DNA of 64,000 nt. It comes from a virus. The notes below the pieces were generated by a model. It was not told the DNA's origin, made no database searches, and saw nothing but the letters and a program-made list of their open reading frames with translations. The stretch spans positions 72,445 to 136,444 of the IMG/VR virus record IMGVR_UViG_3300032007_000018. One strand, 5' to 3'. Below, one piece after another: positions 26,406-47,011 of the stretch. Position 1 is the stretch's first letter; each line of letters starts with the position of its first letter. A program made the translations under genes and the position numbers.

Positions 26406-26409
26406 TAAG

Positions 26410-33800: not shown

Positions 33801-34071
33801 GCCCGGGGGATTTTTAATTCGTTTTTTCGGGCGCGCCGCCCACGACCCAGCCGGCGCGTTTTCGCACTAAATCAGTAGTTCGATAATTTGTTAGCGTTTT
33901 AGTGCGCTAAAGCGCTAACGTGCAATGTCCCGAAATGAATAATCATACATGGAAAATGAATAAAAATTTTTTTGCCAAATTGCATTTTGGGGGTTGACAT
34001 TCCCGGATAATCTGGTATAATAGGTTACAGAAAGGGCAAGGAAAAGCCCCCAAACCAGAAAGGAAAAAACA

Positions 34072-34224
34072 ATGTACTCTGTGTGGATGACCGATGACCT
34101 CTGCTGCGACGATGTGATGGTGTTCGAAGGAACCCTCGCTGACTGCCTCGCCTACACCGCCGATGACGAATTCGACGAAATGTACATCGTAGAGCCAGAT
34201 GGTTTCACCGTGTACGGTGACTAA
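34072..34224 (+). CDS. Early small acidic protein (50 aa)
   Basis: Promoter TTGACA 33994 / TATAAT 34016. Conserved leader ACAGAAAGGGCAAGGAAAAGCCC..AAACCAGAAAGGAAA, shared with 35277. Confidence 0.45.
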   Translation: MYSVWMTDDLCCDDVMVFEGTLADCLAYTADDEFDEMYIVEPDGFTVYGD

Positions 34225-34244
34225 TCCAAAAGGAGGACAACTCA

Positions 34245-34421
34245 ATGACCACTTTCTTCAACCGCACCCCTGCCGAGCAGGAAATCATCCGCAAGGCTTA
34301 CGACTTTGAAGTCGCCGCCATTGAAGCGGAAAGCTCCGAACGTAACCCCTACTTTGAAGCCCTACAAACTATGGGGCTGTGGGAAGCCGTCAATGAAGCG
34401 CTGGAAATGCGCCACAACTAA
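34245..34421 (+). CDS. Early small protein (58 aa)
   Basis: SD AAAGGAGGA. Co-transcribed with 34072. Confidence 0.45.
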   Translation: MTTFFNRTPAEQEIIRKAYDFEVAAIEAESSERNPYFEALQTMGLWEAVNEALEMRHN

Positions 34422-34706
34422 GAGAGCCGAGCCAATCGACTCTCTTTTCATTTGTCCAAGAGGATAAATAGCCACACGTGAGTAATGAATAATTATTCAT
34501 CGGCCGGCCGCCCACGCGCCATGCGGCCGGTTTTTCCATTATACCACAGCCCCAGTAATTTGTCAATAGACAATTTGCACAAATTTTCAATACACCGGGC
34601 GCCCGAAATTTGTGCATTTTGCCAAGAGTAGAAAATGAAAAAATAGTTGACAAAATGCCGCGCATCTGCTATACTGTTATCAGATAAGGAAAGGAGATAC
34701 AAAACG

Positions 34707-35153
34707 ATGAAAATTTGGTTTGACATGGATGGGACGCTGGCTGACCTGTACGGCGTTGATAACTGGCTGGATAAGCTCCGCTCTGGCGACCCCTCCCCCT
34801 ATATGGATGCCGCGCCGTTACTCCGCCTGTCCGCTCTGGCGCGAGTGCTGAATCGCCTGCTCCGCGAGGGCAACGAGGTCAGCATCGTGAGCTGGCTGTC
34901 TAAAAACAGCACCCCCGAATATGACAATATGGTGACTGCGGCAAAACACGCATGGCTGGCGAAACACCTGCCGAGCGTCAAGTGGACTGCGGTGCGGATT
35001 GTCCCCTACGGCACACCGAAAAGCGAGGTTGCCGAGCTTGACCCCCACGACGTGCTGTTTGACGATGAAGAAAACAACATCATCGAATGGGAAGAAGCTG
35101 GCGGTTGGGGCTTTGACCCCTCCGAGATTATGAGTTTTCTGCGGGCGGCATAA
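34707..35153 (+). CDS. HAD-superfamily 5'(3')-deoxyribonucleotidase-like (NT5C family) hydrolase
   Basis: MKIWFDMDGTLADLYG, which is HAD motif I DxDGT. Promoter TTGACA 34647 / TATACT 34670. The track ORF has an N-terminal artefact extension from 34647. Confidence 0.6.
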   Translation: MKIWFDMDGTLADLYGVDNWLDKLRSGDPSPYMDAAPLLRLSALARVLNRLLREGNEVSIVSWLSKNSTPEYDNMVTAAKHAWLAKHLPSVKWTAVRIVPYGTPKSEVAELDPHDVLFDDEENNIIEWEEAGGWGFDPSEIMSFLRAA

Positions 35154-35276
35154 GCCCGCGGGGCGCTCGCCCGGGCTGAAAAAAATTTTCAAAAACCCCT
35201 TGACATTTCCGGGAAACCTGCTATAATAGATTACAGAAAGGGCAAGGAAAAGCCCAAAAACCAGAAAGGAAACGCT

Positions 35277-35465
35277 ATGTATACTCTGATTATCACCCGC
35301 ACTTGCGGCGAGACCCCCACCGAGGTCAACTTCCCCATCTCCGGCTGCGATGCGGCTTATACCGCATTCCGCATGGCTTGCGAGCTGTGCGATCTCGCGG
35401 GCGGCGGTGTCTACCTGACAGATGCCAATACGGGCGAGATTCTCGCCGACAACTCCGAGGACTAA
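35277..35465 (+). CDS. Early small protein
   Basis: Track ORF. Promoter TTGACA 35209 / TATAAT 35221. Shares its leader with 34072. Confidence 0.5.
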   Translation: MYTLIITRTCGETPTEVNFPISGCDAAYTAFRMACELCDLAGGGVYLTDANTGEILADNSED

Positions 35466-35654
35466 TCCTCGGAGTTTTTTTGAGCCGCGCGTGCCCGGGC
35501 GCCACGCGCGGTTTTTGCATAATTATACGTCATTTATGAATTTTTATTCATTACACCTAGTAATCAAAAATTTTTTCATTTTTCCTAAAAAAGTTCTTGA
35601 CATCCGGGCGCAAGTGTGCTAATATAGTATCAGAAAACGAAAGGGGATAAAAAA

Positions 35655-36140
35655 ATGACTATCATCACTTCTGAACTGCCTATCAGCTTCATCTATGACC
35701 CTGCGCACAATCGCGCCCGTTATTCCATCAATAATGGCGAAAGCTGGATGAATCACGGCGAATTTTGTGAGCGCATGGCAAAAGTCATTCTCGGCTTCAG
35801 CCCCGACAAGGATTCCGTGGCTTTTGATAAGGGATATGACATTCCCGAACTCAAGGCGAGCGTTAAGTCCTATAAGTGCGGCCTCAGCAACTGCAAGGAC
35901 ATGCCTAAGACCCCCACCGAGTTCATGGCTGAGTTCTGGAGACGCGATATTGCCGAGCTCCACATATATGTCTGTGACCATGGCGATTATATGGCGCTCT
36001 ATATAATGAACACGCCAGAATTTCAGCGGTTCATTGAGCACTTCGCCAAGTGGGAAGAGGACACTCACAACTTCAGAATGTATACCTGCGACAGCAAGGT
36101 TGAACGGTGGTTGACAAATAATTATGCAGAGGATGAATAA
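35655..36140 (+). CDS. Early hypothetical protein (161 aa)
   Basis: Track ORF. Promoter TTGACA 35597 / TAATAT 35620. A palindromic terminator lies at 36122-36165. Confidence 0.65.
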   Translation: MTIITSELPISFIYDPAHNRARYSINNGESWMNHGEFCERMAKVILGFSPDKDSVAFDKGYDIPELKASVKSYKCGLSNCKDMPKTPTEFMAEFWRRDIAELHIYVCDHGDYMALYIMNTPEFQRFIEHFAKWEEDTHNFRMYTCDSKVERWLTNNYAEDE

Positions 36141-36400
36141 TCCTCTGCATAATTATTCATTTTCCGGCGGCGCGCTCACGGGCCTGGCGCGCCGACTTTC
36201 ACGCGCTAAAGTGCTAAAGTAATAAAAATTTGGATTATCACGCTTTCGCACGTTAAAGTATTAATTCCCGAAAGTAGTCCATCGCTGGACTATCCAAGAG
36301 TGGCGAAGATTGTTAAAAAAAAGATTATTAAAAAAGGGGTTGACACCCGGGCGATTGTGTGCTATACTGTTACCAGAGTTAAGGAAAGGAGATAACCACC

Positions 36401-36850
36401 ATGACTACCTACACTATCAACCGCCCCGCCGCCGCCCCGAAAAATGAGGGCATCGCCCGCGAATGGGCTCTGTGTGCCTACTATAAGGTTACCCGCACGT
36501 CACACGACAGCCTTGCCTATGACAAGGGCAGCGACCTTGACGCGGGTAGCAAGCATATCTCCATAAAGGCAAGCGCGTTCACTCTGATGGCGGGTTGTCT
36601 GTGTGAGGGTCTGACCTCCTTTGACGCCATCTGGAATCTTTATGCCAGCAAGGTGCATAGCAACACCTTCGCCTATGTCACCGCGGACTTCACCGTGTAC
36701 GAGATGAACCTTGACGAGTTCAAAAAGTTCGTATATGCTTTCGCTCATACCGAACGCGAGAGCGAGAAAAACGGCGGTCAGGTCAAGATTCGCCTCCGCA
36801 AGGAAAGCGGCAAGATGCTCAAGTGGCTGGCCAATATGGCCGCCGCTTGA
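36401..36850 (+). CDS. Early hypothetical protein (149 aa)
   Basis: Track ORF. Promoter TTGACA 36340 / TATACT 36364. Confidence 0.65.
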   Translation: MTTYTINRPAAAPKNEGIAREWALCAYYKVTRTSHDSLAYDKGSDLDAGSKHISIKASAFTLMAGCLCEGLTSFDAIWNLYASKVHSNTFAYVTADFTVYEMNLDEFKKFVYAFAHTERESEKNGGQVKIRLRKESGKMLKWLANMAAA

Positions 36851-36929
36851 ACGCCCCGCAAAAATAATGCTTGACAAATCAATGAATATATGCTATAATA
36901 CAAATAGAAAATGAAAAGGAGATAAAAAA

Positions 36930-37127
36930 ATGAGAGATATTAACAGAATTATGCCGCTGATGGAACAGCTCGGCAATGTTTGGGAGCAGTTTCCCGACCT
37001 GCGCTTTATGCAGTTCATCGTCAACTTCCAGTCGTGGCTCGGCTCCGATGGCTTCTATATGGAAGATGACAAATTGATCGAGAAGATTTGCGAGTTCGCA
37101 ACCGAAATGAGAAAGGGGTACTTCTAA
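36930..37127 (+). CDS. Early small protein
   Basis: Track ORF. Promoter TTGACA 36871 / TATAAT 36894. Confidence 0.55.
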   Translation: MRDINRIMPLMEQLGNVWEQFPDLRFMQFIVNFQSWLGSDGFYMEDDKLIEKICEFATEMRKGYF

Positions 37128-37393
37128 TGGCTATCACAATCAAGCGCGAAAAGAACAACCGCGGCGTTCCTCTGCGCGGTCTGCGAGTTGGCGAAACTTT
37201 CCTATATGACAACCGCGTGGGCGTAGTGGTCGAGCGCAATGGGCATCAGTTCTATCTTGACCTGACCACCTGCCACAACTTCCGCAAAAGCAATGACCTG
37301 CGGTGGGACACTTATTACAAAAACAGCGAGCTTGACCCCGATACCCTTGTCCTGCCTGTGGAAATTGAACTTACTTACAAGGTCGTGGGCTAA
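37127..37393 (+). CDS. Early small protein (88 aa)
   Basis: TAATG overlap with the upstream gene. It is the C-terminal part of track ORF 37088..37393. Confidence 0.5.
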   Translation: MAITIKREKNNRGVPLRGLRVGETFLYDNRVGVVVERNGHQFYLDLTTCHNFRKSNDLRWDTYYKNSELDPDTLVLPVEIELTYKVVG

Positions 37394-37496
37394 GCCTGCG
37401 ACCTTTGGCCCGGGCGGCGCGAAAAAAATTTAATTTTATGCTTGACATTTGCTTACACCTGTGGTATATTAGTTATAGAAAGAGAGGTTGATTGAA

Positions 37497-37619
37497 ATGC
37501 GTGATTACTTCAAGCGTATTCGTTGCAAAGGTCGGTATTGCCGCTATGAGATTACGAACAAAACTGTTCGTAGCGTGGCAAAGAATGAAACTAAAAAGGA
37601 GATGGCGAAACGTGGATAA
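37497..37619 (+). CDS. Small basic Cys-containing protein (40 aa), tentative
   Basis: SD GAGAGG, 7 nt, ATG. Promoter TTGACA 37442 / TATATT 37465. An alternative overlapping frame is track ORF 37492..37761. Confidence 0.3.
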   Translation: MRDYFKRIRCKGRYCRYEITNKTVRSVAKNETKKEMAKRG

Positions 37620-37761
37620 GGAACTGAAAGCCTATCGGCAGAAAATGAGCGCAGAAGATTTACAGATGTATCTGCATTTCAAGAAGCGCGGGAGCAAGGT
37701 TGCCGCAAAGAAAGGCAAAGGGTCGTATGACCGCAAGGACTTTAAGAAAGGGGTTGCGTAG
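37609..37761 (+). CDS. Small basic protein, tentative GTG start
   Basis: SD AAGGAG, 8 nt, GTG. It is the C-terminal part of the track ORF. Confidence 0.3.
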   Translation, partial: NVDKELKAYRQKMSAEDLQMYLHFKKRGSKVAAKKGKGSYDRKDFKKGVA

Positions 37762-37762
37762 A

Positions 37763-37957
37763 ATGATGGAATGGCAGAAGAAAATGCTTGAGGGTATGCG
37801 CCTGATGCAGGAAGCCTGCGCCGAGGTCGGTTCTTGGAATGACTGTCGCAAATGCCCTTTTGGTCGGTATTGCGATACGCTCATGGAGAACGATGACATT
37901 GATTCCTTCATGGGATTGCAAGACAAAGAATGGATTGGCGATGAGAAAGTCGATTGA
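37763..37957 (+). CDS. Small Cys-containing protein (64 aa)
   Basis: MMEWQKK... is the C-terminal part of track ORF 37700..37957. Confidence 0.4.
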   Translation: MMEWQKKMLEGMRLMQEACAEVGSWNDCRKCPFGRYCDTLMENDDIDSFMGLQDKEWIGDEKVD

Positions 37958-38157
37958 TTTTTTCAATCGGTTTTTTACTTTGTTCCATTTTTGGCCCGCG
38001 CGGCGACGGTCGCTGGGCAACCGAGGCGCGCGGTATTCGCGCCGGGCGCGCGTTTTCAACAAATTTTGAGCGCCAAGTTTGTTCATAATTACCAGTTGAC
38101 ATTTCCCAAAAGGTGTGCTATACTCTAATTGTAATTTGAAGAAAGGACACCAAACCA

Positions 38158-38820
38158 ATGTATGATTTTGACATTTTCGAGCGATTTATCGTGGTAGATA
38201 CTGAAACCACGAATACGCTTGACGAGCCTATCTGTTATGATGTGGGCTTTGCGGTTGTTGACAGATTCGGCGCGGTTTACGAGAAGTTTTCTTTCGTAGT
38301 TGCCGAAGTGTTCCTTGACCGCGAGTTAATGTCTTACGCCTATTACGCCGACAAAATCGAGCAGTATTGGCAGGACATTAAAGCAGGTCGGCGCAAGCTG
38401 GCGAAATTCTCCACCATTCGGCGCGTTTTCGCTGATGCTTGCAAGCGAAATCAAGTGAAAGTTGTGCTTGCCCACAACGCCCGCTTTGATAACCGCTCCC
38501 TCAATCTGACACAGCGTTATCTGACCGCCTCAAAGTATCGCTATTTCTTTCCTTTTGGCTTGCAAGTATGGGATACGCTGAAAATGTCGCGTGAAGTGCT
38601 GAAAAACGATGATGACTATGGCGCGTTCTGCTACAACAACGACTTTCTGACGCAACGCCTTTGCAAGCAATTTACCGCCGAAGTGCTTTTCCGCTTCATC
38701 ATTGGCGAGATTGATTTTGAGGAATCGCACACAGGGCTTGAAGATGTGCTGATTGAAAAGGAAATTTTTGCCTATCTCATGTGGCGCAAGCCCGAAATCT
38801 GCGGCAAGCTCTGGGGTTAA
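38158..38820 (+). CDS. DnaQ-like DEDDh 3'-5' exonuclease
   Basis: VVDTETT (Exo I), AHNARFD (Exo II), HTGLEDV (Exo III). Promoter TTGACA 38096 / TATACT 38119. Confidence 0.7.
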   Translation: MYDFDIFERFIVVDTETTNTLDEPICYDVGFAVVDRFGAVYEKFSFVVAEVFLDRELMSYAYYADKIEQYWQDIKAGRRKLAKFSTIRRVFADACKRNQVKVVLAHNARFDNRSLNLTQRYLTASKYRYFFPFGLQVWDTLKMSREVLKNDDDYGAFCYNNDFLTQRLCKQFTAEVLFRFIIGEIDFEESHTGLEDVLIEKEIFAYLMWRKPEICGKLWG

Positions 38821-38940
38821 TTACCCTAGGGCAACCGCCCGGGCGGCCGGCAAATTGCACAATCAGCACAAGGAAAAAATCTTATTCTTTGTGTATTTTG
38901 CCTATTGTAATTTTCGTAGGGCTATGCTATACTATAATTG

Positions 38941-39037
38941 TTCCAAGGGAAAGGGAACGCAAGCCGAACCAAGGTCGGGAGAATTGAGAACCATCCGAGG
39001 CCGCTCAAAAAAATCCGAAAAAAAATGAAAAAAAGGC
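38941..39037 (+). ncRNA. Promoter-driven ORF-less structured RNA (about 100 nt). Shares its 5' end with the RNA at 46262.
   Basis: Promoter TTGTAA 38905 / tgcTATACT 38928. Begins AUUGUUCCAAGGGAAAGGGAACGC, with hairpins GUUCC..GGAAC and CCGA..UCGG. No ORF. The next promoter starts at 39038. Confidence 0.4.
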
Positions 39038-39118
39038 TTGACAAATCCCCAAACCTGTGGTACAATAAAATCACAAAAGGAGAGCTGAACTCCACAAACA
39101 GAGAAAGGGTTGATACCA

Positions 39119-39489
39119 TGACCACTTCCAAGACCACCAACAAGACCGCCCTTCAGTTCGCGCTGGACAATCTGCCGAACGCTCCCGCCGATGTGCGCGA
39201 GAAGTGGCAGAAGATGATCGACCAGCTCGACAAGAAGAACGCCGCACCCAAGAAGCTGACCGCCCAGCAGGAGAAGAATGTCGCCATGAGCGGCGAGGTG
39301 CTGGACTTCCTGCTCGACCACGAGGGCGAGGGCTTCACTGTGAGCGACCTGCTCAAGTCTGTGCCTGTCCTTGAGGGCGACAGCAACCAGCACGCCTCTG
39401 CGCTGATGCGTGCGCTTGTGCTGGCTGGCTCTGTGGAGAAGTACACCGACAAGCGGCGCACCTACTTCCGCGCGGTGACTGCCGCGTAA
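39119..39489 (+). CDS. Early protein, paralog family 1 (with 45643 and 59848)
   Basis: Promoter TTGACA 39038 / TACAAT 39061. Shares ...KRRTYF... C-terminus and ATGACC start context with its paralogs. Confidence 0.6.
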
Positions 39490-39649
39490 TCCCCAGCGGC
39501 AGGGGGGGCAATAGCCCCCCCAATTCTTTTACCCTGCCACTTTAATACTTTAGCGCGCGAGCGCGCCCGGGCGACGGTTTACATAATAATTTTCTGCTTG
39601 ACATTTTCCAAAAGGTATGCTATACTATCCACAGAAAGGAGAGATAGCT

Positions 39650-40012
39650 ATGACCGAAAAGGAAATTCTTCACGCGATGAAAACCCTTGACTTGACCCGC
39701 GAAGAAGCGATTGAAATGCTCCAAGAGGATGAAGCAATCGACCGCGGCGCTGACCCGCACCCGCTGACCCCCGAACAGGAGAAAGCAAGTAAAGCGGCGC
39801 GTATTGTCTCTACTGGACCGCGCACCGCCCAAGTAAAGCGAGAGCGCAAGCCGAATGAGGACAAGCGCGAACTGATTGCGGCGATTGAAGAAATGCTGAC
39901 TTACAGCGACATTCAAGCCGAGAGCGTCACCATCACCAACCCCGAGCGTCAAATCGACTTTGAATTCCGCGGCAATCGCTACCGCGTAGTGTTGAGCGCC
40001 CCGCGCAAGTAA
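39650..40012 (+). CDS. Early protein, paralog family 2 (with 42632)
   Basis: Promoter TTGACA 39598 / TATACT 39621. SD AAAGGAGAGAT. Shares LT.EQEK...ERKPN motifs with 42632. Confidence 0.6.
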   Translation: MTEKEILHAMKTLDLTREEAIEMLQEDEAIDRGADPHPLTPEQEKASKAARIVSTGPRTAQVKRERKPNEDKRELIAAIEEMLTYSDIQAESVTITNPERQIDFEFRGNRYRVVLSAPRK

Positions 40013-40100
40013 GCGCGGGGTAATTCGCCCGGGCGCAAGTTAAAAAAATAACTTTTAAAAAACTATTGACATTTAGCGCCCCCTGTGCTATACTAGAGTG

Positions 40101-40440
40101 GCCATTGACCGAGGAACTGTGGAGGGAAGCCAACATCAACCCTGCGAGTACCAAAGAATGTGTGTTGGTGATGATTACACGATGAAGTCGGCCTGCGGAC
40201 AAAAGTTTTCTTAAATGGGAGAAAGGTTATAGATGCAGCAGGAACGATGAATTTTTTAGGCAGTTTGTTTCCTGTCGGTGAAAAGGAAAAAAGACTCCCC
40301 CTTGAGGGGGCGGTGAGCAAAAATGGCAAAAGACTTAGTAGTGAGCGAGCGAGTCTTCAACTCTCAACACGCAAAAGCGAATGGTGAGCCAGAAAGCAAG
40401 AGACGCCCCCAAGAAAGGGTAAAAAAAAATGAAAAACCTA
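40101..40440 (+). ncRNA. ORF-poor transcript of about 340 nt immediately upstream of the tRNA (candidate structured ncRNA or tRNA leader)
   Basis: Promoter TTGACA 40066 / TATACT 40089. No plus-strand ORF in the track. Hairpins CCCCCUUGAGGGGG and AAGACU..AGUCUU. One weak 42-codon ORF ends at a TAG inside the next -35. Confidence 0.35.
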
Positions 40441-40474
40441 TTGACAAATAGCCAAAAGTGTGCTATACTATAAT
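40441..40474 (+). promoter_or_regulatory. Class A promoter driving the tRNA
   Basis: TTGACA, 17 bp, tgcTATACTATAAT, ending 9 nt before tRNA position 1. Confidence 0.6.
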
Positions 40475-40482
40475 CACAACAA

Positions 40483-40558
40483 GGGAATGTAACTCAAATG
40501 GTAGAGTAGCGGATTCTTACTCCGAAGGTTGCGGGTTCAACTCCTGTCATTCCCACCA
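40483..40558 (+). tRNA. tRNA-Lys (anticodon CUU) with encoded CCA
   Basis: Cloverleaf: acceptor GGGAATG/CATTCCC (7 bp); D-arm ACTC-AAATGGTA-GAGT; anticodon stem GCGGA/TCCGA (one G.A); loop TTCTTAC with U33-CUU-A37; variable AGGTT; T-arm GCGGG-TTCAACT-CCTGT; discriminator A, CCA. Confidence 0.75.
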
Positions 40559-40729
40559 ATGTTTCTAATCTCCTTTCTATTCCTCTCTTTCTGTGCAGGG
40601 CGGCTCCTATTGGGGCCGCTTTGTGCGCCCGGGCGGGCGATTGTTAAAAAATAAACTTTTGAAAAAAGTATTGACAAAACGCATCAAAGATGCTATACTA
40701 TAATCACCAAGAGAAAAGGAGATAAAAAA

Positions 40730-40942
40730 ATGTTCAATGATGCTATTCTCGTAGGTCGCAACTGCCCCTTCTGCGGCGAGTACCATGAGGTCATGGTCAG
40801 CGAAGCTGACTATGTCGCGTGGCAGAGCGGGGAACTGGCGCAGAACGCCTTCCCCTACCTCTCCGCCGATGAGCGTGAAATCCTCATCAGCGGCATCTGC
40901 CCCAAGTGCTGGGCAAAAACTTTCGGGGAGGAGGATGAATAA
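40730..40942 (+). CDS. Small Zn-ribbon protein
   Basis: Track ORF with CPFCG...CPKC. Promoter TTGACA 40671 / TATAAT 40699. Confidence 0.6.
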   Translation: MFNDAILVGRNCPFCGEYHEVMVSEADYVAWQSGELAQNAFPYLSADEREILISGICPKCWAKTFGEEDE

Positions 40943-41208
40943 TGAAAGCAACTGGAATTGTGCGCCGACTGGATGACCTCGGACGCATCGTGCTCCCCAA
41001 GGAGATTCGCCGCACTCTCAATGTTCACGAGGGCGACGCAATGGAGATTTGGGTGGATGATGAACACAAGGGCATCGTCCTCACCAAGTACAACTGCGAC
41101 GAAAACGCGGTAACGCTTCTCAAGCAGGCTGCGCAGATGCTGGAGGGCAGCGAGAACGCCGCTTATCGCGACCTTATTTTCCACATCGCATCTAAGCTGG
41201 GGGAATAA
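40942..41208 (+). CDS. AbrB/SpoVT-family (swapped-hairpin) DNA-binding regulator
   Basis: VRRLDDLGRIVLPKEIRRTLNVHEGDAMEIWVDDE matches the AbrB N-domain signature. ATGA overlap with the upstream gene. Confidence 0.7.
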   Translation: MKATGIVRRLDDLGRIVLPKEIRRTLNVHEGDAMEIWVDDEHKGIVLTKYNCDENAVTLLKQAAQMLEGSENAAYRDLIFHIASKLGE

Positions 41209-41343
41209 TTACCCCCAGCTAACCGCCCGGGCAAAAGATTGTTAAAAAATAAACTTTTCAAAAACCTATTGACAAAACAAAAAAGGTATGCTATACTATA
41301 ATCACATTGAGGGTGATGACCGAACATCGAAAGGAGATACAAA

Positions 41344-41673
41344 ATGACTTATCTTGTTAAGAGGGAAATGACAAGAGCGTGGAAGCGTTTTTCAACTTTC
41401 GCATTTCTCGACCAGTACCTGCGCGCCCACGTGGGCGACACTTTCACAGTCCGCGACCTGCGGGCTATCTGCCCCGACATCTGCCCGAACACCGCTGCCG
41501 CTTGGCTGAGCGACTACGCCAGAGCTTTCGGCGTCAAGGTCAGCGTGAGCAATACCTACATCGAACTTGACAAGCCCATCAAGATTGACAGCTGGGGCGG
41601 GCGCGCTGTCTACATTGAGGGGTATAAAGCCCACCTGTACCATGTGGACGCGCTCGACCCCACCTGGGAGTAA
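41344..41673 (+). CDS. Early hypothetical protein
   Basis: Track ORF. Promoter TTGACA 41269 / TATAAT 41297. Leader GGGTGATGACCGAACATCG. Confidence 0.6.
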   Translation: MTYLVKREMTRAWKRFSTFAFLDQYLRAHVGDTFTVRDLRAICPDICPNTAAAWLSDYARAFGVKVSVSNTYIELDKPIKIDSWGGRAVYIEGYKAHLYHVDALDPTWE

Positions 41674-41864
41674 TTCCCACGAGAACATCACCGACATTCA
41701 CGACAGCCCGCTTTTCAAGAGTCTGTTTGGGGAGTAATCCCCAGCGGGCTCTGCCCGGGCGATTCGTCAGAATCAATAAATCCAAAAGCAAAAGTTTGTG
41801 TAACATTCTAAATTGATTTTTATAAAAAATTATGTTATTATAATAATAGAAAGGAGAATGAGAA

Positions 41865-42038
41865 ATGAGATTGTTAATGTTCGTATTTTGTGGGCTTCTG
41901 GCTCTGCGCTTCGTGTGGGACTTCTCCCAAATGTCCAAAAGCAAAGACGCAACAGCCTTTACAAGAGGGTTAATGTCTGCGGCGTTTGATGCCGCTGTGA
42001 TTATCCTGTTTGCAATTATTGAGAAAGGAAGATGGTAA
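41865..42038 (+). CDS. Small membrane protein (57 aa) in an AT-rich islet
   Basis: Class B promoter TTGATT 41814 / TATAAT 41839. SD AAAGGAGAA. Two hydrophobic segments. Confidence 0.45.
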   Translation: MRLLMFVFCGLLALRFVWDFSQMSKSKDATAFTRGLMSAAFDAAVIILFAIIEKGRW

Positions 42039-42039
42039 A

Positions 42040-42516
42040 ATGAAAATGTTGATTATTTTTGCCCTTGCTACTCTTTTGAATGTGGTGCTTGCCACTATCA
42101 AAAGTGTAATGACAATCAAGGGGACTAAAATTTCTGCGGCGGTGTGGAACGCGCTGTCTTTCGGTCTGTATTCCTACATCGTCATTTTGACCGCCACCGC
42201 TGATTTAACCACGCTTGAAAAAGTTGTTGTTACTGTGGTGTGTAACCTCATCGGCGTGTATGGCGTCAAGTGGGTTGAGGAAAAAATGCGGAAAGACAGA
42301 ATGTGGAAATTAGAAATGACTGTGCTTTCTGCCGAAGCGGACACAATGCACCGCGCATTGGAAGATGCTAACATTCCTAATCACTATGTAAACGCAGGGC
42401 GTCACGCCGCTTTCAGTTGCTACTGTGCAACTAAGGCAGACACCGATGCCGCCCTTGCGATTGGTGAAAAGTTTAACGCAAAAACCTTTGCGGCTGAAAC
42501 CCATTTAGCGCCCTAA
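42040..42516 (+). CDS. Membrane protein (about 3 transmembrane helices) with a soluble C-terminal domain
   Basis: Track ORF 42010..42516 with ATG at 42040 (MKMLIIFALATLL...). Co-transcribed with 41865. Confidence 0.55.
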   Translation: MKMLIIFALATLLNVVLATIKSVMTIKGTKISAAVWNALSFGLYSYIVILTATADLTTLEKVVVTVVCNLIGVYGVKWVEEKMRKDRMWKLEMTVLSAEADTMHRALEDANIPNHYVNAGRHAAFSCYCATKADTDAALAIGEKFNAKTFAAETHLAP

Positions 42517-42631
42517 TAGTTTAGGGCGCTAAAGCGCCCGGGCCGCGATTGTTAAAAAACTAACGCAAAAAATCTCTTGACAACTGTTCCAAAGTGTGCT
42601 ATACTGTATTACAGAAAGGGGGATAAAGCAC

Positions 42632-43015
42632 ATGGCAGAAACGCAAAAAGAAAAAATCATGCGCGTTCTGCAAGTGGACAGCCGACAGGCCGATGAAATC
42701 CTTGCCTATGACAAAGCGGTGGAGCGCGGCGAGAAAACACCCTATGACCTCACCGCCGAGCAGGAAAAGGAAGTCCGCAAGTATCGGCAGGCTGAACGCA
42801 AGCCCACGCTTTACAAGTGGGACACCAAAAAGCGTGAGCGTAAACCCAACGCCACAAAAGAGGGAATTGTCGCAGAAATCGCAACTTTTCTCAAAGAAAA
42901 CAGCGATTTTGACACAAAAGATGTGGAAATCACGAACAAAAATCGCGAGATTACTTTCCAAATCTCCGACGATACCTTTACTGTGACACTGGTGCAGAAG
43001 CGCAAGCCCAAATAA
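42632..43015 (+). CDS. Early protein, paralog family 2
   Basis: Promoter TTGACA 42577 / TATACT 42600. SD AAAGGGGGAT. Confidence 0.6.
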   Translation: MAETQKEKIMRVLQVDSRQADEILAYDKAVERGEKTPYDLTAEQEKEVRKYRQAERKPTLYKWDTKKRERKPNATKEGIVAEIATFLKENSDFDTKDVEITNKNREITFQISDDTFTVTLVQKRKPK

Positions 43016-43161
43016 TGCGGAAAAACCGCGGTTTTCGCAAGAAAATCGCGGTTTTTCTAACTTTTTTCGCATTTTTTAACGATTTACTGCGCGAAAGTGC
43101 GCCGCCCGGGTTGATTTTGTAAAAAATTTTTTGTATAATAATAATGTAAGGAAGTGAAAGA

Positions 43162-43413
43162 ATGAATGTGGTAAAGAAAATGGATGACATTGGAAGAATT
43201 GTCATTCCCCAAGATTTGCGGCGTTCATTGCGTTGGATGGGCGGAGATGAAATTGAAATCATTTCAAACAATGATGGAAGTCTTACTTTGCGCAAGCACG
43301 AAAATGATACTGCCAAAAGATTAAAAGAAATAAGTTTGGAATGGTCTAATGACATTGATGTTGAACAGCAATTCACTGAACTAATCAAACTAATTGAAAG
43401 TAAAACAAAATAA
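43162..43413 (+). CDS. AbrB/SpoVT-family regulator (second copy)
   Basis: MDDIGRIVIPQDLRRSLRWMGGDEIEI. Class B promoter TTGATT 43111 / TATAAT 43134. AT-rich islet. Confidence 0.65.
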   Translation: MNVVKKMDDIGRIVIPQDLRRSLRWMGGDEIEIISNNDGSLTLRKHENDTAKRLKEISLEWSNDIDVEQQFTELIKLIESKTK

Positions 43414-43429
43414 CGGAGGAGCCAAAGCA

Positions 43430-43546
43430 ATGTCTATTGAATTGTTAGAAGCCCTAATCTTAATTGTCAAACACTGTTTGGAATCAAACGGTTGCGATGA
43501 TTGTATTCTAAAGGGTTTCTGTGGTAAGTTGCCAAAAGACTGGTAA
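43430..43546 (+). CDS. Small Cys-rich peptide (38 aa)
   Basis: SD GGAGGAG, then ATG. CLESNGCDDCILKGFCG. Confidence 0.35.
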   Translation: MSIELLEALILIVKHCLESNGCDDCILKGFCGKLPKDW

Positions 43547-43716
43547 CCGACACCGGCCGCAGTGCGGTCGAATTTTCACGAGGCAAGCCCTTTGGCTCTT
43601 TTTGTTTTGATTGCCCGGGCCGCAGGTTTACATAATAATTTTCCCGAAAAAAACTGTTGACAAACCGCCAAGAGTATGCTATACTATAATCACCAAGAGA
43701 AAAGGAGATAAATCAA

Positions 43717-44007
43717 ATGGCTACTAGGTATTCTGCGCGTTGGCGCTGGGAGGGTAAGGACAGCGAAAGCATTGCGCTTTTCTCTGCTGATGTTCCGCAG
43801 GAAGTCCTTGTTGACTTCGTGGATTCCCTCTGGGCGAATGCCGCAAACTGGCAGGCTGGCGAGGGCGAAGACATTCGCTGGGTTGACTGCATCGACATGG
43901 AAACTGGCGAGGTCATTGCCGAGCGTTCCGACTGGGACGAACCTGACAACTGCGACGACGATTGCGGCTTCGACCCCTACATGGGTTGCTATACCGATGA
44001 CTGCTAA
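43717..44007 (+). CDS. Early small acidic protein
   Basis: Track ORF. Promoter TTGACA 43657 / TATAAT 43685. Confidence 0.6.
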   Translation: MATRYSARWRWEGKDSESIALFSADVPQEVLVDFVDSLWANAANWQAGEGEDIRWVDCIDMETGEVIAERSDWDEPDNCDDDCGFDPYMGCYTDDC

Positions 44008-44020
44008 GGGGGGTGGAACT

Positions 44021-44167
44021 ATGACCTTGATGCAATGTTATAGTAAAATCATCAGCGAGGTATTCTGGCGCTCCATCTATTTCGGCGTCCCTTTCTCGCA
44101 GGTTTGGCCTCTGCCTGTCATCCTCTGCGTAGCAATCACTGTTTACCACTTCATCACGCGAGAGTGA
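44021..44167 (+). CDS. Small hydrophobic peptide (48 aa)
   Basis: ATG after GGGGGGTGG. It is the C-terminal part of track ORF 43772..44167. Confidence 0.35.
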   Translation: MTLMQCYSKIISEVFWRSIYFGVPFSQVWPLPVILCVAITVYHFITRE

Positions 44168-44261
44168 TGAAGTGGCCCGGGCCAAAATTTTTTTTGAAAA
44201 AGGTATTGACAAATAAACACAAGTATGCTATACTGTATTCAGAAAGTGAGGGATACAGAAA

Positions 44262-44570
44262 ATGAAAAACGAAGTGAAATACAAAGATTATCGCATCGGG
44301 CGTGATGTGTACACTGTAAAACTGACCTATTCTCCGCAAGGTAGCCTTTTCGGCCCTGAAGTGCGTGTGGAAGTGATGAAATGGCATCAGCCGCCCCGCA
44401 ACCTGTGGGAGCGCATCACCGAATGGTGGAAATATTATCTTTCTGGTTGGGTATGGAACCCCGCTTTGACAAATGCTTCGCTTAATGCTTACTGCATTGA
44501 CAAGTGCAACTATGAAGCAGCACAACGCCTCGCAATAGAGAGGGGCGACAAGGAATGGGAGGCTATGTGA
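44262..44570 (+). CDS. Early hypothetical protein
   Basis: Track ORF. Promoter TTGACA 44206 / TATACT 44229. Confidence 0.6.
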   Translation: MKNEVKYKDYRIGRDVYTVKLTYSPQGSLFGPEVRVEVMKWHQPPRNLWERITEWWKYYLSGWVWNPALTNASLNAYCIDKCNYEAAQRLAIERGDKEWEAM

Positions 44571-44611
44571 GCCTCCCTGCCGCCCGGGCGCGATTGTTAA
44601 AAAACTAACGC

Positions 44612-44643
44612 TTGACAATAGGCCAAAAGTGTGCTATACTATA
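44612..44643 (+). promoter_or_regulatory. Representative class A promoter (one of about 34)
   Basis: cTTGACAatag...tgTGCTATACTATAAT. Preceded by a GCCCGGGCG box and an A-tract (GATTGTTAAAAAACTAACG). Confidence 0.6.
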
Positions 44644-44684
44644 ATCACATTGAGGGTGGTGGCCTACACTAAGGAGATTTTTCT

Positions 44685-45311
44685 ATGGAAAAGCACAAAT
44701 TTTTTGAGCGTGAAATCTTGCTTCTTGAAAGTGAAGATTTGCGCGACTTCGCCCGCTGGTATCTTGACAATCATGTGGGCAACTGGTTCTGGAAGTCTGG
44801 CGCGTCCGCAAGTGGGAAGTATCATCCCTCTTTCACTCATGGCGAGGGCGGGCTTGTGCGTCACACTCGCGCGGTGTGTATGGTCTGCGAGGAACTTCTG
44901 CGCATGAGCGGCTACGCATACATGAAAGCGGAATACAAAGACTTTGCGCGGCTTGCCTGCCTGCTCCACGATACGCGCAAGTATGGAAGCGGCGACGAGG
45001 AAGATAAGAGTTATTATCCGCGACATGGTGAAGCCGCCGCAAATGATGTTGGCGTTGCGTGGCGTGAGTTTTTCCACAGTCATTCCTGCCCCGAATTGCT
45101 CTTGATGGCTATTCGCTCCCACATGGGACAGTGGACTGAAAACCGCGATGACCGCCCCTTTACCAACATTGACCGCCTTGTGCATCTGTCGGACTACATT
45201 GCAAGCCGCCCATTTTGGGACATTCCCGAACTGACATCGCAGTATTACGAGGACGCGGCGCGAGAAATTCTTGATGCCCCGCCTGCTGGTATGGTGGACT
45301 ACCCCTTTTAA
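44685..45311 (+). CDS. HD-domain phosphohydrolase
   Basis: KYHP...H...LLHDTRKY motifs. Track ORF. Confidence 0.6.
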   Translation: MEKHKFFEREILLLESEDLRDFARWYLDNHVGNWFWKSGASASGKYHPSFTHGEGGLVRHTRAVCMVCEELLRMSGYAYMKAEYKDFARLACLLHDTRKYGSGDEEDKSYYPRHGEAAANDVGVAWREFFHSHSCPELLLMAIRSHMGQWTENRDDRPFTNIDRLVHLSDYIASRPFWDIPELTSQYYEDAAREILDAPPAGMVDYPF

Positions 45312-45642
45312 TGGGGGTAGTCCGCGCCCGGGCAGCCGGCAAATTGCACAAAAGGGGTCTAAAATTTTAACACTTTTTGTGCAAAATCCCATCTTGCAAT
45401 TTTCTGAAAATCTGCTATAATAATAATTGTCAAGAGGCGGTGGACACCGCAGAACAAAAACGAGAGGCGCGGACAGCGGTGAACAGTGCGGAGCGCCCAG
45501 CCCGAAAAAATTTTTCAAAGAAATTTGAAAAACCTCTTGACAAACAGCGCGAAGTGTGCTACAATAAGAATGTAAGCAAGAGGGAAACAAAACCCCTGCT
45601 AATAAAATGGGTGGTGACCGACACCAGAAAGAGGTAGATACT

Positions 45643-46044
45643 ATGACCAAGACTGAAAAGATGACCAACCGCAAGGCTCTGACCTACTGCATTGACAACT
45701 GCGACCTGCCCGCCGATGTTGCGGAGAAGCTGACCGCCATGGTCGCCGCGCTGGATAAGAAGTCCACCGCCGAGCGCAAGCCCACCGCCAAGCAGGGCGA
45801 GAACGCCACTGTGCGCGCCGCTGTCGTGAAGTTCATCAACGACAACGCCGAGGGCGACGGCTTCACCTGCTCCGACCTTATCAAGGCCTGCCCCGCTGTT
45901 GAGGGCAAGTCCAACCAGTATGTCTCCGCCATCCTGCGTCAGGCGGTGCTGGCTGGCGAGATTTCCAAGGGCACTGTGAAGCGTCGCACCTACTTCGCCC
46001 CTGTGGGCGTCTACGCCACCGCTGACGAGGACGAGGGGGAGTAA
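45643..46044 (+). CDS. Early protein, paralog family 1
   Basis: Promoter TTGACA 45537 / TACAAT 45560. Leader hairpin UGGUGACCGACACCA directly upstream. The track ORF has an upstream extension. Confidence 0.6.
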   Translation: MTKTEKMTNRKALTYCIDNCDLPADVAEKLTAMVAALDKKSTAERKPTAKQGENATVRAAVVKFINDNAEGDGFTCSDLIKACPAVEGKSNQYVSAILRQAVLAGEISKGTVKRRTYFAPVGVYATADEDEGE

Positions 46045-46261
46045 TCCCCCTCCCCTCACAAGGGGCAAGCGCCCCTTTACATGGGCCGTCGGGGGGTCAG
46101 GCCGCGAAAGTCAACGCTTGCCTGTGGCGTTGATAAGTAGTGCCCTTGGGCGGTCGATGTAAGGGGGCGCTTGCGCGCCCGGGTGATTGACAAAAACTTA
46201 ACGAAAATTTTTTTGAAAAAAGTATTGACAAAAGCAGACCTGTGTGCTATACTATAATTGT

Positions 46262-46545
46262 TCCAAGGGAAAAGGGAGCGCGGCGAGGGCTAACAGCGAC
46301 GAGTGGACGCACTTAGGACACCTTGACCGCGCAGGAACATTCAAGGTCGCCACGCGACCAAAAGAGCAAAAGGCAAGATGTGAGAAAGGACGAGCTTACA
46401 ATGGGTTTGCCGATGTGTTATCCTAAGTGGTGGAAGTGACCCACCCGCCAAAAAGAGGTCACCGCCTGTGGCGTCCAAAACCGCAGGTGTTGGATAAGGG
46501 GTCGTTGCCGCGAGGAGTTGCTAACCTTGCGGCAGTCGGCCCGGG
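46262..46545 (+). ncRNA. Promoter-driven ORF-less structured RNA (about 285 nt)
   Basis: Promoter TTGACA 46225 / TATACTATAAT 46248-58. Begins UUGUUCCAAGGGAAAAGGGAGCGC like the RNA at 38941. Stems GGUCGC-cac-GCGACC and UGCCGCGAGG-aguugcuaa-CCUUGCGGCA. No credible ORF; track ORF 46244..46426 starts inside the promoter. Confidence 0.45.
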
Positions 46546-46637
46546 TGATTGTTAAAAAAATAATTAGCAAAAAAGACTTGACAACGACGTAGTTATCTGC
46601 TATACTATAATCACCAAGAGAAAAGGAGATAACTAAA

Positions 46638-46862
46638 ATGTTCAGAGGTTGGTTTGACGATTTGGAAAGGGCAATCGTGGCGTTTCGTGCGCTTGGGATT
46701 GATGACCTGTTTTGCTCCATCAGTGTCAACCTGTATGGCGATTTTGTTTTTGAAATTGCCGAAGGTGTCAAATACTTCGTGAAGCATGACAGCCTTGGCA
46801 ACTACAGCGTGTGGCGCAACTTCGGGGATTGGAGAAATCCCGATTGGAGGGAAATCAAGTGA
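46638..46862 (+). CDS. Early small protein
   Basis: Track ORF. Promoter TTGACA 46578 / TATAAT 46604. Confidence 0.6.
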   Translation: MFRGWFDDLERAIVAFRALGIDDLFCSISVNLYGDFVFEIAEGVKYFVKHDSLGNYSVWRNFGDWRNPDWREIK

Positions 46863-47011
46863 CTGTCAAAGAACTAATCAAAAAGTTGGAAACCATGCCA
46901 CAAAATGTGGAAGTCATTTTTTGGAATGAACAGCCCGAAACATGGTATTCCACTAAGACCTGCGAAATCTCTGTTAATTCGCACACAGGTTATGTCGATT
47001 TTGAAATCTAA
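46859..47011 (+). CDS. Early small protein (50 aa), GTG start
   Basis: GTGA overlap with the upstream stop. C-terminal part of track ORF 46811..47011. Confidence 0.4.
   Translation: MTVKELIKKLETMPQNVEVIFWNEQPETWYSTKTCEISVNSHTGYVDFEI

What the first reader, a model, noticed from the sequence alone, without database searches (positions are those of the whole stretch)
40483..40558. A phage tRNA-Lys(CUU) with its own class A promoter inside the GC-rich island, and no suppressor tRNA in this window
The cloverleaf is canonical and CCA is encoded. AAG, the codon this tRNA reads, is favoured in the GC-rich early genes. Low-GC hosts often lack or under-express tRNA-Lys(CUU), so this looks like codon supply for the island. 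The expected TAG-decoding tRNA(CUA) is not in these 64 kb, so it must lie elsewhere in the genome, or recoding relies on a host factor.
Basis: partly seen in the sequence, partly recalled or inferred. Interest (0 to 1): 0.55.

Follow-up and report, generated by a model that had tools for sequence, protein, structure and literature searches.

The report
Early-promoter lysine tRNA in recoded phage
This is a real, conserved lysine tRNA gene (it reads the codon AAG) with its own strong promoter in the early region of a large gut phage that reads the stop codon TAG as glutamine. It is an ordinary kind of phage gene, and the "missing" TAG-reading tRNAs lie about 19 kb beyond the window.

Summary
ARAGORN and Rfam (64.4 bits) both find one tRNA in the window, tRNA-Lys(CUU) at 40483-40558. 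It has A73 and an encoded CCA, and its minimum-energy fold is a cloverleaf. It sits 13 nt downstream of a TTGACA-17-TG-TATACT promoter, one of about 23 near-identical copies in the 32-50 kb island.

The window belongs to a phage of at least 175 kb, related to SPbeta and Phass-1, that reads TAG as Gln. I walked along the same genome. An array of at least 33 tRNAs starts 2.7 kb past the window end. It holds two tRNA(CUA) suppressors at window-equivalent 83.4 and 83.7 kb, a second, divergent tRNA-Lys(CUU), and a tRNA-Lys(UUU).

The early tRNA is a discrete promoter-plus-tRNA cassette of about 128 nt. It is absent from the closest relative sampled. It is present, under the same promoter type, in two more distant lineages, with six compensatory stem changes and an invariant CUU, A73 and CCA.

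AAG makes up 60% of Lys codons in island genes, in line with their GC3. It makes up 92% in the three TAG-free major virion genes, whose GC3 is only 0.35.

The best reading is early, phage-supplied AAG decoding. A defence-evasion role is not excluded. The host is unknown. I classify it as a new member of a known kind, of modest interest.

The parts
40420..40440 (+). A-rich tract upstream of the -35 hexamer (UP-element-like). It is shared by the other promoters of this class.
   Evidence: Sequence. The same A-rich tract precedes the roughly 22 class A promoters listed. Function is inferred.
40441..40469 (+). Class A promoter: -35 TTGACA (40441-40446), 17-nt spacer, TG extension (40461-40462), -10 TATACT (40464-40469). 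The predicted start is about 40476, giving a 5' leader of about 6-8 nt.
   Evidence: 11 of 12 consensus positions, TG present; family statistics. The transcription start and early timing are inferred.
40483..40558 (+). tRNA-Lys(CUU) gene: anticodon at 40516-40518, discriminator A73 at 40555, encoded CCA at 40556-40558, and a conserved G27.A43 mismatch at the top of the anticodon stem.
   Evidence: 64.4 bits; cloverleaf is the minimum-energy fold. Orthologues with 6 compensatory pairs.
40429..40556 (+). Promoter-plus-tRNA cassette of about 128 nt (boundaries +/- 3 nt). It is present here and exactly absent from the otherwise collinear relative L157.
   Evidence: Pairwise alignment; sequence of L157. 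In L159 the cassette sits 2.2 kb away from the flanking unit.
40559..40592 (+). Pyrimidine-rich 3' trailer containing ATCTCCTTTCT (40568-40578), the reverse complement of the early-gene ribosome-binding site. It belongs to the flanking noncoding unit, not to the tRNA.
   Evidence: the only + strand copy among 16 matches. It is conserved without the tRNA in L157, L159 and L167.
40593..40626 (+). 15-bp G+C-rich hairpin ending in UUUGUGC. It is the probable terminator of the unit, but its U-tract is imperfect.
   Evidence: -35.3 kcal/mol, z = -3.8, 0 of 200 shuffles fold as well. The terminator scan did not flag it. It is conserved, with compensatory changes, in relatives (helix 12).
40066..40428 (+). 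Upstream class A promoter (40066-40094) and a conserved noncoding body of about 335 nt into which the tRNA cassette is inserted. Read-through from it could also produce the tRNA precursor.
   Evidence: 94% identical over 221 nt in L159, 83% in L157. The ENA gene calls place no gene here. Structure is only weakly supported.
32800..49450 (+). GC-rich early island. The 31.7-50.1 kb stretch holds 41 small TAG-free genes, most with their own class A promoter and an AGGAG-type ribosome-binding site. AAG is 60% of their Lys codons.
12989..13984 (-). Tail tube gene (Pfam YomU_Tube). TAG-free, with AAA 0 and AAG 17. One of the three strongest users of AAG.
18065..20206 (-). Major capsid gene (Pfam YonB, 18065-19171) and the adjacent 338-aa virion gene (19190-20206). 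Both are TAG-free, with AAA 5 and AAG 37 together.
1..28775 (-). Late and structural operon read with TAG = Gln: 172 in-frame TAG codons in 17 complete genes. These are the genes that need the tRNA(CUA) genes found outside the window.
   Evidence: (ORF coverage rises from 29% to 98% if TAG is read through), and (TAG aligns with Q 204 times and with TAG 104 times in relatives).

Best explanation
A functional tRNA-Lys(CUU) gene carried as a self-contained promoter-plus-tRNA cassette in the early region of a phage of at least 175 kb. The phage reads TAG as Gln, is related to SPbeta and Phass-1, and infects an unidentified Bacillota host from the ruminant or animal gut.

Proposed mechanism:
- Host sigma-A RNA polymerase fires the consensus extended -10 promoter as soon as the DNA enters the cell (inferred).
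- The short leader is removed by RNase P. The 3' end already carries CCA.
- Host LysRS charges the tRNA through U35, U36 and A73 (inferred from E. coli identity rules).
- The tRNA then decodes AAG from the start of infection.

It tops up AAG decoding before the large tRNA array is available. That array has a different promoter class and contains a second, less canonical tRNA-Lys(CUU), a tRNA-Lys(UUU) and the two TAG suppressors. AAG makes up 60% of Lys codons in early genes and 92% in the most heavily translated virion genes.

Shown: the gene, its promoter and hairpin, the cassette structure, its conservation, the codon counts, and the rest of the tRNA set.

Inferred: expression timing, charging, and the benefit to the phage.
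For: - Gene and fold.
- Promoter and its 23-copy family.
- Orthologues under the same promoter type in two other lineages. Six stem pairs changed on both sides, 93% of cells are paired, and CUU, A73, CCA and the G27.A43 mismatch are invariant.
- Two unrelated phage tRNA-Lys(CUU) genes share the identical anticodon arm.
- Codon use: island AAG 0.60 against 0.28 in TAG-containing late genes. The major virion genes have AAG 0.92 but Glu GAG 0.42 (Fisher p = 9e-10), with GTG, CCG and GGG at zero and GCG at 1 of 20.
- AAG bias in the capsid gene recurs in most relatives (193 AAG to 81 AAA).
- The array copy of tRNA-Lys(CUU) scores only 38.5 bits, against 64.4 for the early copy.
- The array tRNAs examined (both suppressors and the array tRNA-Lys(CUU)) follow class B promoters.
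Against: - The island's AAG share is no more than its GC3 predicts. GAG is equally common there without an early tRNA-Glu(CUC).
- The genome already has another tRNA-Lys(CUU).
- The cassette is absent from the closest relative sampled (L157) and from two other lineages within +/-7-8 kb of the marker gene, so it is dispensable.
- One variant (L160) carries a T-loop substitution.
- The host and its tRNA-Lys genes are unknown.
- The early timing of class A promoters rests on sequence and position only.
Confidence: 0.6

Rival explanations
1. Defence evasion. The early tRNA-Lys replaces, or outlasts, host tRNA-Lys that is cut by an anticodon nuclease triggered on infection (PrrC-like or PARIS AriB-like). 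Virion genes written almost entirely with AAG would then stay translatable.
For: - tRNA-Lys(UUU) is the main target of PARIS AriB, and a T5 tRNA-Lys variant neutralises that system (PMC11464382, PMC12409363).
- Phage tRNAs have been proposed to escape nucleases through anticodon-loop changes (PMC10264068, PMC11555353).
- Here there are three phage tRNA-Lys genes, one of them on the earliest promoter type.
- The anticodon loop and stem read U36-A-C-U-C-C, lacking the U36-A-A-U-C|A41 motif that AriB cuts (one search compared).
- Major virion genes use 54 AAG to 5 AAA.
Against: - A CUU tRNA cannot read AAA, and early genes still contain 99 AAA codons, while late TAG-containing genes contain 435. 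It could not rescue infection on its own.
- No defence system or host sequence is available for comparison.
- The known cases concern Proteobacteria and UUU isoacceptors.
- The patchy distribution of the cassette fits either model.
Confidence: 0.2
2. A largely redundant accessory cassette. It is one of many shuffled promoter-gene modules in the early region, kept by drift or weak benefit, with the array tRNA-Lys(CUU) doing the real work.
For: - A clean presence/absence difference of about 128 nt against L157.
- Different positions in L159 and L161.
- Absent from three of the six related lineages sampled.
- The L160 variant has a U-to-G change in the T-loop.
- A second tRNA-Lys(CUU) exists in the array.
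Against: - Where the cassette is present, the tRNA keeps its cloverleaf through six compensatory changes, with anticodon, A73 and CCA invariant. This holds between lineages whose marker protein is only 71-86% identical. That is purifying selection.
- In all three lineages it keeps a strong promoter and a short leader.
Confidence: 0.12
3. Not primarily a decoder. It could be an integration (attP) site, or a tRNA-shaped processing signal that makes RNase P or RNase Z cut the surrounding noncoding RNA.
For: In this phage the tRNA lies inside a conserved noncoding unit, between its body and its 3' tail, so excising the tRNA would split that RNA.
Against: - In L159 the tRNA and the noncoding unit are 2.2 kb apart, and in L157 the unit exists without the tRNA.
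- No integrase lies nearby.
- The tRNA has its own promoter, full identity elements and a conserved anticodon.
Confidence: 0.03

Closest known systems
Phage-encoded tRNAs as codon supply (the classical codon-compensation model, e.g. the tRNA sets of T4 and T5). This comparison rests on my own knowledge and on the summary in PMC10264068.
   Same: A phage tRNA whose codon is over-represented in highly expressed phage genes, charged by the host synthetase.
   Different: It is a stand-alone cassette with its own consensus promoter and terminator in the early region, separate from the genome's array of at least 33 tRNAs, and it duplicates an isoacceptor already in that array.
tRNA complement of Phass-1 (OQ749652, proposed genus Phassvirus; PMC10607447)
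   Same: - It is the closest deposited complete genome (capsid protein 51% identical).
- It is also a TAG-to-Gln phage, with a likely Clostridia host.
- It has 36 tRNAs, including tRNA(CUA) suppressors next to tRNA-Leu(UAA), plus both Lys(CUU) and Lys(UUU).
   Different: All Phass-1 tRNAs lie in the replication and metabolism module, with none in the 50 kb that holds the small-gene and structural regions. Its Lys(CUU) is only 67% identical to this one.
T5 tRNA-Lys(UUU), which neutralises PARIS (PMC11464382, PMC12409363), and the anticodon-loop escape hypothesis (PMC10264068)
   Same: A phage-encoded lysine tRNA available during infection, with an anticodon stem-loop sequence that differs from the motif the nuclease cuts.
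   Different: The anticodon here is CUU, not UUU. The host is a Bacillota member, not E. coli. No defence system or cleavage has been shown. The tRNA cannot read AAA.
Stop-codon-recoded gut phages with suppressor tRNAs (bioRxiv 10.1101/2021.08.26.457843; PMC9523058)
   Same: In-frame TAG is concentrated in structural and late genes. The regions read first are in standard code. The suppressor tRNAs are phage-encoded and Gln-like, and the recoded genes are low in GC.
   Different: This finding is not the suppressor but an ordinary sense tRNA. Here the most abundant virion proteins are TAG-free, and no gene in the 111 examined ends in TAG.
Bacillus prophage SPbeta and its relatives (virion module)
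   Same: The structural genes hit the SPbeta-derived Pfam families YonB, YomU_Tube, YomW, YomV and YonD_N.
   Different: Similarity is at the protein-family level only (capsid about 26-29% identical to the Bacillus and Brevibacillus phages found). I did not examine the tRNA content or genetic code of SPbeta itself.

Membership tests
tRNA (Rfam RF00005) | A score above the curated gathering threshold, with a full-length cloverleaf. | tested here: met
   64.4 bits against 29, model positions 1-71. ARAGORN agrees. The minimum-energy fold is a cloverleaf.
tRNA (Rfam RF00005) | Stems maintained by compensatory substitutions in homologues. | tested here: met
   Four sequences from three lineages: 6 pairs changed on both sides, 92.9% of cells paired, against 38-60% when partners are slid by 1-3 columns. 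The sample is small.
tRNA-Lys, CUU isoacceptor | Anticodon C34-U35-U36 in a 7-nt loop, with U33 and A37. | tested here: met
   The loop reads UUCUUAC. The anticodon is invariant in all orthologues.
tRNA-Lys, CUU isoacceptor | LysRS identity elements (U35, U36 and discriminator A73, as defined for E. coli; my own knowledge). | tested here: met
   U35, U36 and A73 are present and invariant. Their relevance to the unknown host's LysRS is inferred.
tRNA-Lys, CUU isoacceptor | The best-scoring isotype-specific model is Lys (tRNAscan-SE). | not testable with these tools
   tRNAscan-SE is not available. As proxies, BLAST against annotated phage tRNAs gave mixed isotypes at 74-83% identity. The identical 20-nt anticodon arm occurs in two other phage tRNA-Lys(CUU) genes.
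tRNA-Lys, CUU isoacceptor | Aminoacylation with lysine and decoding of AAG in vivo. | not testable with these tools
   This needs charged-tRNA sequencing or in vitro charging.
Sigma-70 / sigma-A promoter with extended -10 | -35 TTGACA, 17-nt spacer, TGn, and a TATAAT-like -10. | tested here: met
   11 of 12 consensus positions with TG. 10 promoter-like sites were found in 2 kb against 1.8 expected. The family has about 23 copies.
Sigma-70 / sigma-A promoter with extended -10 | Mapped transcription start and early timing. | not testable with these tools
   Inferred from the consensus strength and from the position between the late and replication modules.
Intrinsic terminator | A G+C-rich hairpin followed directly by a U-tract. 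| tested here: inconclusive
   There is a strong 15-bp hairpin (z = -3.8), but its 3' side reads UUUGUGC and the scan did not flag it.
Genetic code 15 phage (TAG = Gln) | In-frame TAG in conserved genes, aligning with Gln in homologues. | tested here: met
   ORF coverage rises from 29% to 98%. Opposite this phage's TAG codons, relatives have Q 204 times, TAG 104 times and E 75 times. In the two GIY-YIG proteins TAG falls in the YIG-x-T/S motif; that the usual residue there is Gln is my own recollection.
Genetic code 15 phage (TAG = Gln) | A phage-encoded tRNA(CUA) with Gln-like features. | tested here: met
   There are two genes at window-equivalent 83.4 and 83.7 kb in the same genome, scoring 38.2 and 57.1 bits. 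Both have G73 and a weak 1-72 pair. They lie outside the window.
Anti-defence tRNA (evasion of PARIS or PrrC type nucleases) | The host isoacceptor is cleaved on infection and the phage copy resists. | not testable with these tools
   The host is unknown. All that can be said is that the AriB motif U36AAUC|A41 is absent here.

The most novel reading that the evidence does not exclude
The early tRNA-Lys(CUU), together with the near-exclusive use of AAG in the major virion genes, forms a second codon-level control or immunity layer alongside TAG suppression. The phage would make synthesis of its most abundant proteins depend on its own C34 lysine tRNA. That synthesis would then be independent of the host's U34 tRNA-Lys, the known target of PrrC-type and PARIS-type nucleases. 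The tRNA is delivered as a mobile promoter-plus-tRNA cassette that moves around the early region.
Probability: 0.15. Interest if true: 0.6.

Novelty: new member of a known kind. Interest (0 to 1): 0.3.

Why it matters
The finding gives a clean, compact natural example of a tRNA carried as a single promoter-gene cassette, in a phage family that is very abundant in gut and rumen metagenomes (about 5,900 homologues of one early protein). Natural variants with and without the cassette exist. This makes the long-running question of codon supply versus defence evasion for phage tRNAs directly testable once a host is found.

It also corrects the picture of this genome. The recoding machinery is phage-encoded and lies just outside the window. 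The strongest demand for AAG comes from the major virion genes, not from the GC-rich island.

Tried and rejected
- Megablast of 12-14 kb of the island and of the late region against deposited phages gave no match.
- An exact search of IMG/VR for the tRNA with a free anticodon gave no match, so there is no CUA or other anticodon variant of this tRNA there.
- A protein-based search of IMG/VR with the neighbouring exonuclease-like gene gave no relatives.
- Three guesses at gene starts near the right end were needed before a look-up worked.
- My single metagenome scan used the class B promoter.
- The search with the radical-SAM protein did not return the identical protein and was largely wasted. 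Walking succeeded only through cluster look-ups.
- BLAST of the tRNA against annotated phage tRNAs did not settle the isotype.
- Ideas considered and rejected:
  - A CUU tRNA could misread TAG. Rejected because U36 cannot pair with the U of UAG.
  - The tRNA is a disguised relative of the suppressors. Rejected because it is only 53-55% identical to them.
  - The tRNA is an attP site. Rejected because there is no integrase nearby and it has its own promoter.
  - The 3' anti-RBS motif is a feature of the tRNA. Rejected because it belongs to the flanking noncoding unit.
- The host could not be identified. MAG bins holding relatives are inconsistent: Bacillota, Clostridia, Lachnospiraceae, Mollicutes, Erysipelotrichaceae and even Muribaculaceae.

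Full report
**Observation.** ARAGORN reports one gene in the 64 kb, tRNA-Lys with anticodon CTT at 40483-40558 on the + strand. Rfam's tRNA model scores it 64.4 bits against a threshold of 29, over the full model. A permissive Rfam scan and ARAGORN with lowered thresholds find no other tRNA-like sequence in the window. The sequence folds into the cloverleaf as its minimum-energy structure and ends in A73-CCA. The coordinates, anticodon, encoded CCA and "only tRNA in the window" are all confirmed.

**What the window is.** If TAG is read through, ORFs of at least 150 aa cover 98% of 1-28,500 instead of 29%.
- The late operon on the - strand includes a 3,059-aa tape-measure-like gene with 94 in-frame TAG codons.
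- Its products hit the SPbeta-derived Pfam families YonB, YomU_Tube, YomW, YomV and YonD_N.
- TAG means Gln. Opposite this phage's TAG codons, relatives have Q 204 times, TAG 104 times and E 75 times.
- None of the 111 genes examined ends in TAG; 81 end in TAA and 30 in TGA.
- The closest deposited genome is Phass-1 (capsid protein 51% identical). It is a described TAG-to-Gln phage with 36 tRNAs (PMC10607447).
- Relatives with 65-88% identical capsid proteins sit on 154-175 kb contigs binned into assorted Bacillota MAGs from ruminant and other gut samples.
- The same sequence, with zero mismatches, is found in JGI contig Ga0256407_10000190 (155,515 bp) and in two ENA contigs. Together the ENA contigs span about 175.5 kb. 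The longest contig on record is 200,444 bp.

**The transcription unit.** The tRNA lies 13 nt downstream of TTGACA-17 nt-TG-TATACT.
- This promoter is one of a family. The 14-mer TGCTATACTATAAT occurs 9 times exactly, and 17 times with up to 2 mismatches against 0.74 expected by chance. Fifteen of the 17, including all exact copies, lie on the + strand between 32.8 and 46.6 kb.
- A looser pattern finds 23 copies in 30.9-51.2 kb. Most of them precede an AGGAG-type ribosome-binding site and a small gene.
- Consensus sigma-A promoters with a TG extension, strong Shine-Dalgarno sites, AbrB-like genes and SPbeta-type virion genes all point to a Bacillota host. That conclusion is an inference.
- Downstream of the tRNA comes a 34-nt pyrimidine-rich stretch and a 15-bp hairpin. 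The hairpin is terminator-like, but its U-tract is imperfect.

**A cassette.** Alignment with the collinear relative L157 shows that about 128 nt (40429-40556) are exactly missing there, while both flanks align at roughly 85-90% identity. L157's exonuclease-like marker protein is 95% identical to the window's. The missing piece is the promoter plus the tRNA.
- The flanks form a conserved noncoding unit with its own class A promoter at 40066.
- In L157, L159 and L167 this unit is uninterrupted. In L159 the tRNA cassette lies 2.2 kb away from it.
- The pyrimidine tail and hairpin therefore belong to that unit, and the tRNA borrows its terminator.

**The rest of the tRNA set.** Walking rightwards in the same genome, with every overlap identical, shows a tRNA array that begins at window-equivalent 66,724. 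That is 2.7 kb beyond the window end.
- ARAGORN finds 27 tRNAs up to 79.2 kb and six more by 86.0 kb.
- The six are two tRNA(CUA) genes at 83,380-83,455 and 83,664-83,738, tRNA-Leu(UAA), a second tRNA-Lys(CUU) at 85,094-85,170, tRNA-Lys(UUU) at 85,395-85,470, and tRNA-Cys. All six score above the Rfam threshold.
- The suppressors have G73 and a weak 1-72 pair, as glutamine tRNAs do.
- They follow a second promoter type, class B (TTGATTTTTAT-N12-TATAATATATATAGAAA). This type has 7-8 copies at 52-62 kb. A short core of it matches more than 119 metagenome stretches, a minority of which share gene homology with the window and many of which hold tRNA arrays, some with suppressors and Lys(CUU)/Lys(UUU) pairs.
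- The array copy of tRNA-Lys(CUU) is only 57% identical to the early one and is less canonical (38.5 against 64.4 bits).

**Codon use.** I used gene calls that read through TAG.

| Gene set | GC3 | Lys AAG | Glu GAG | Gln CAG |
|---|---|---|---|---|
| 41 island genes | 0.64 | 151/250 = 0.60 | 0.46 | 0.67 |
| TAG-containing late genes | 0.23 | 167/602 = 0.28 | 0.24 | 0.22 |
| Tube, capsid and neighbouring virion gene (TAG-free) | 0.35 | 54/59 = 0.92 | 0.42 | 0.60 |

- The island's enrichment in AAG is real (p = 8e-19 against late genes). It is mostly the general shift in GC3.
- In the three TAG-free virion genes, GTG, CCG and GGG are absent and GCG occurs once in 20. Lys against Glu gives p = 9e-10.
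- Capsid genes of most relatives share the AAG bias (193 AAG to 81 AAA). One relative, L026, is reversed at 0 AAG to 22 AAA.
- The strongest specific demand for AAG therefore comes from the most heavily translated late proteins.

**Conservation.** I used homologues of the exonuclease-like early gene at 38158-38820 as markers (5,939 homologues).
- The early region of two other lineages carries a lone tRNA-Lys(CUU): L159/L160 (marker 86% identical) and L161-163 (71% identical). In both it sits behind a TTGACA/TG-TATAAT-type promoter with a short leader.
- It was not found within +/-7-8 kb of the marker in L157 (95%), L164-166 (67%) or L167-168 (72%).
- Across the three lineages, six stem pairs changed on both sides while 93% of cells stay paired. 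The anticodon, A73, CCA and the G27.A43 mismatch are invariant.
- L160 carries a U-to-G change in the T-loop.
- The gene is therefore under purifying selection where it is present, but it is accessory.

**Mechanism and rivals.**
- Best supported (confidence 0.6 for the purpose, about 0.9 for "functional tRNA-Lys(CUU) with its own promoter"): early, phage-supplied AAG decoding that precedes and supplements the array.
- Defence-evasion rival (0.2): it draws on the finding that tRNA-Lys is the main target of PARIS AriB and that a T5 tRNA-Lys neutralises it (PMC11464382, PMC12409363; see also PMC10264068 and PMC11555353). This tRNA lacks the motif AriB cuts. However, a CUU tRNA cannot read the 99 AAA codons of early genes or the 435 of late TAG-containing genes, and nothing is known of the host.
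- Redundant-cassette reading (0.12): it fits the patchy distribution but not the covariation.
- Integration-site or processing-signal role (0.03): unlikely.

**Comparison and novelty.** A sense tRNA in a large recoded phage is expected (PMC10607447; bioRxiv 10.1101/2021.08.26.457843). What is particular here is the following:
- its packaging as a stand-alone cassette with an early-type promoter;
- its duplication of an array isoacceptor;
- its mobility within the early region;
- the Lys-specific AAG bias of the major virion genes.

I classify it as a new member of a known kind, with interest 0.3.

**Limits.** tRNAscan-SE could not be run. The host, the expression timing and the charging are all inferred. 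About 52 kb to the left of the window and about 34 kb to the right of window-equivalent 89.8 kb were not read, so the count of at least 34 tRNAs is a lower bound.

Noticed in passing
window 40066-40428 and 40559-40626 (homologues: L157 8290-8664, L159 10997-11420, L167 about 3165-3560): A conserved early noncoding unit of about 400-450 nt with its own class A promoter and hairpin.
- Its 3' tail carries ATCTCCTTTCT, the exact reverse complement of the early-gene ribosome-binding site (and similar, from my recollection, to the 3' end of 16S rRNA). This is the only + strand copy among 16 matches in the window.
- It is 94% identical between phages whose neighbouring protein is 86% identical.
- RNAalifold pairs the purine-rich 5' end with the pyrimidine tail. 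With only four sequences, 12 of 80 pairs are compensatory.
- There is no Rfam hit.
- It could be a regulatory RNA acting on early-gene translation.
   Followed up: partly
L147 18740-19990 (window-equivalent about 71,000-72,250), outside the window but in the same genome: A GC-rich stretch of about 1.25 kb with no called gene, downstream of a class B promoter inside the tRNA array. It has a sub-threshold HDV-like ribozyme hit (RF02682, 31.4 bits against 44) preceded by a T-arm-like sequence. This recalls the theta ribozymes found next to phage tRNAs (PMC10879173).
   Followed up: no
L150 18057-18169 (window-equivalent 78,802-78,914) and L152 18642-20186 (88,075-89,619): A sub-threshold Y-RNA-like (YrlA) hit of 36.4 bits next to tRNA-Pro. 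A 514-aa DUF2828/DUF7788 gene lies about 9 kb further on and has extreme AAG bias (2 AAA to 30 AAG).
   Followed up: no
L152 12719-13555 (window-equivalent 82,152-82,988): A Thg1-family gene (tRNA-His guanylyltransferase-like) lies directly upstream of the two tRNA(CUA) suppressor genes. A radical-SAM gene with 8 in-frame TAG codons lies just before it.
   Followed up: no
L147 16063-16135 (window-equivalent 68,323-68,395): A tRNA of 54 bits with anticodon UGA, but with a short variable arm and no CCA, so it is not a normal tRNA-Ser. A look-alike in the metagenome locus L105 has anticodon UUU.
   Followed up: no
window 51,247-52,159: Six copies of GCGTCTAAATTTTTAACA (76-100% identical to the reference copy) in the AT-rich gap between the island and the middle genes. 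They look like iterons or operators.
   Followed up: no
window 52,234-62,194 and beyond: A second promoter family, class B (TTGATTTTTAT-N12-TATAATATATATAGAAA), heads the middle genes and several units of the tRNA array, including both suppressors. Its roughly 50-nt region is 85-93% identical in many of the more than 119 metagenome stretches recovered.
   Followed up: partly
window 11202-11801, 23873-24583, 60324-61151: GIY-YIG homing-endonuclease-like genes are inserted in the late and middle operons. They themselves carry 4-7 in-frame TAG codons each, so they are adapted to the phage's code.
   Followed up: no
window 12989-13984, 18065-19171, 19190-20206: The three most abundant virion genes contain no TAG and are richer in GC (41-45%) than their neighbours (27-39%). 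This suggests that suppression is avoided where translation load is highest.
   Followed up: partly
L026 7440-8543 (MAG contig binned as Muribaculaceae): The capsid gene of this relative (87% identical protein) uses AAA 22 to AAG 0, and GAA 30 to GAG 0. This is the opposite of the AAG bias in most relatives and may reflect a different host or tRNA set.
   Followed up: no
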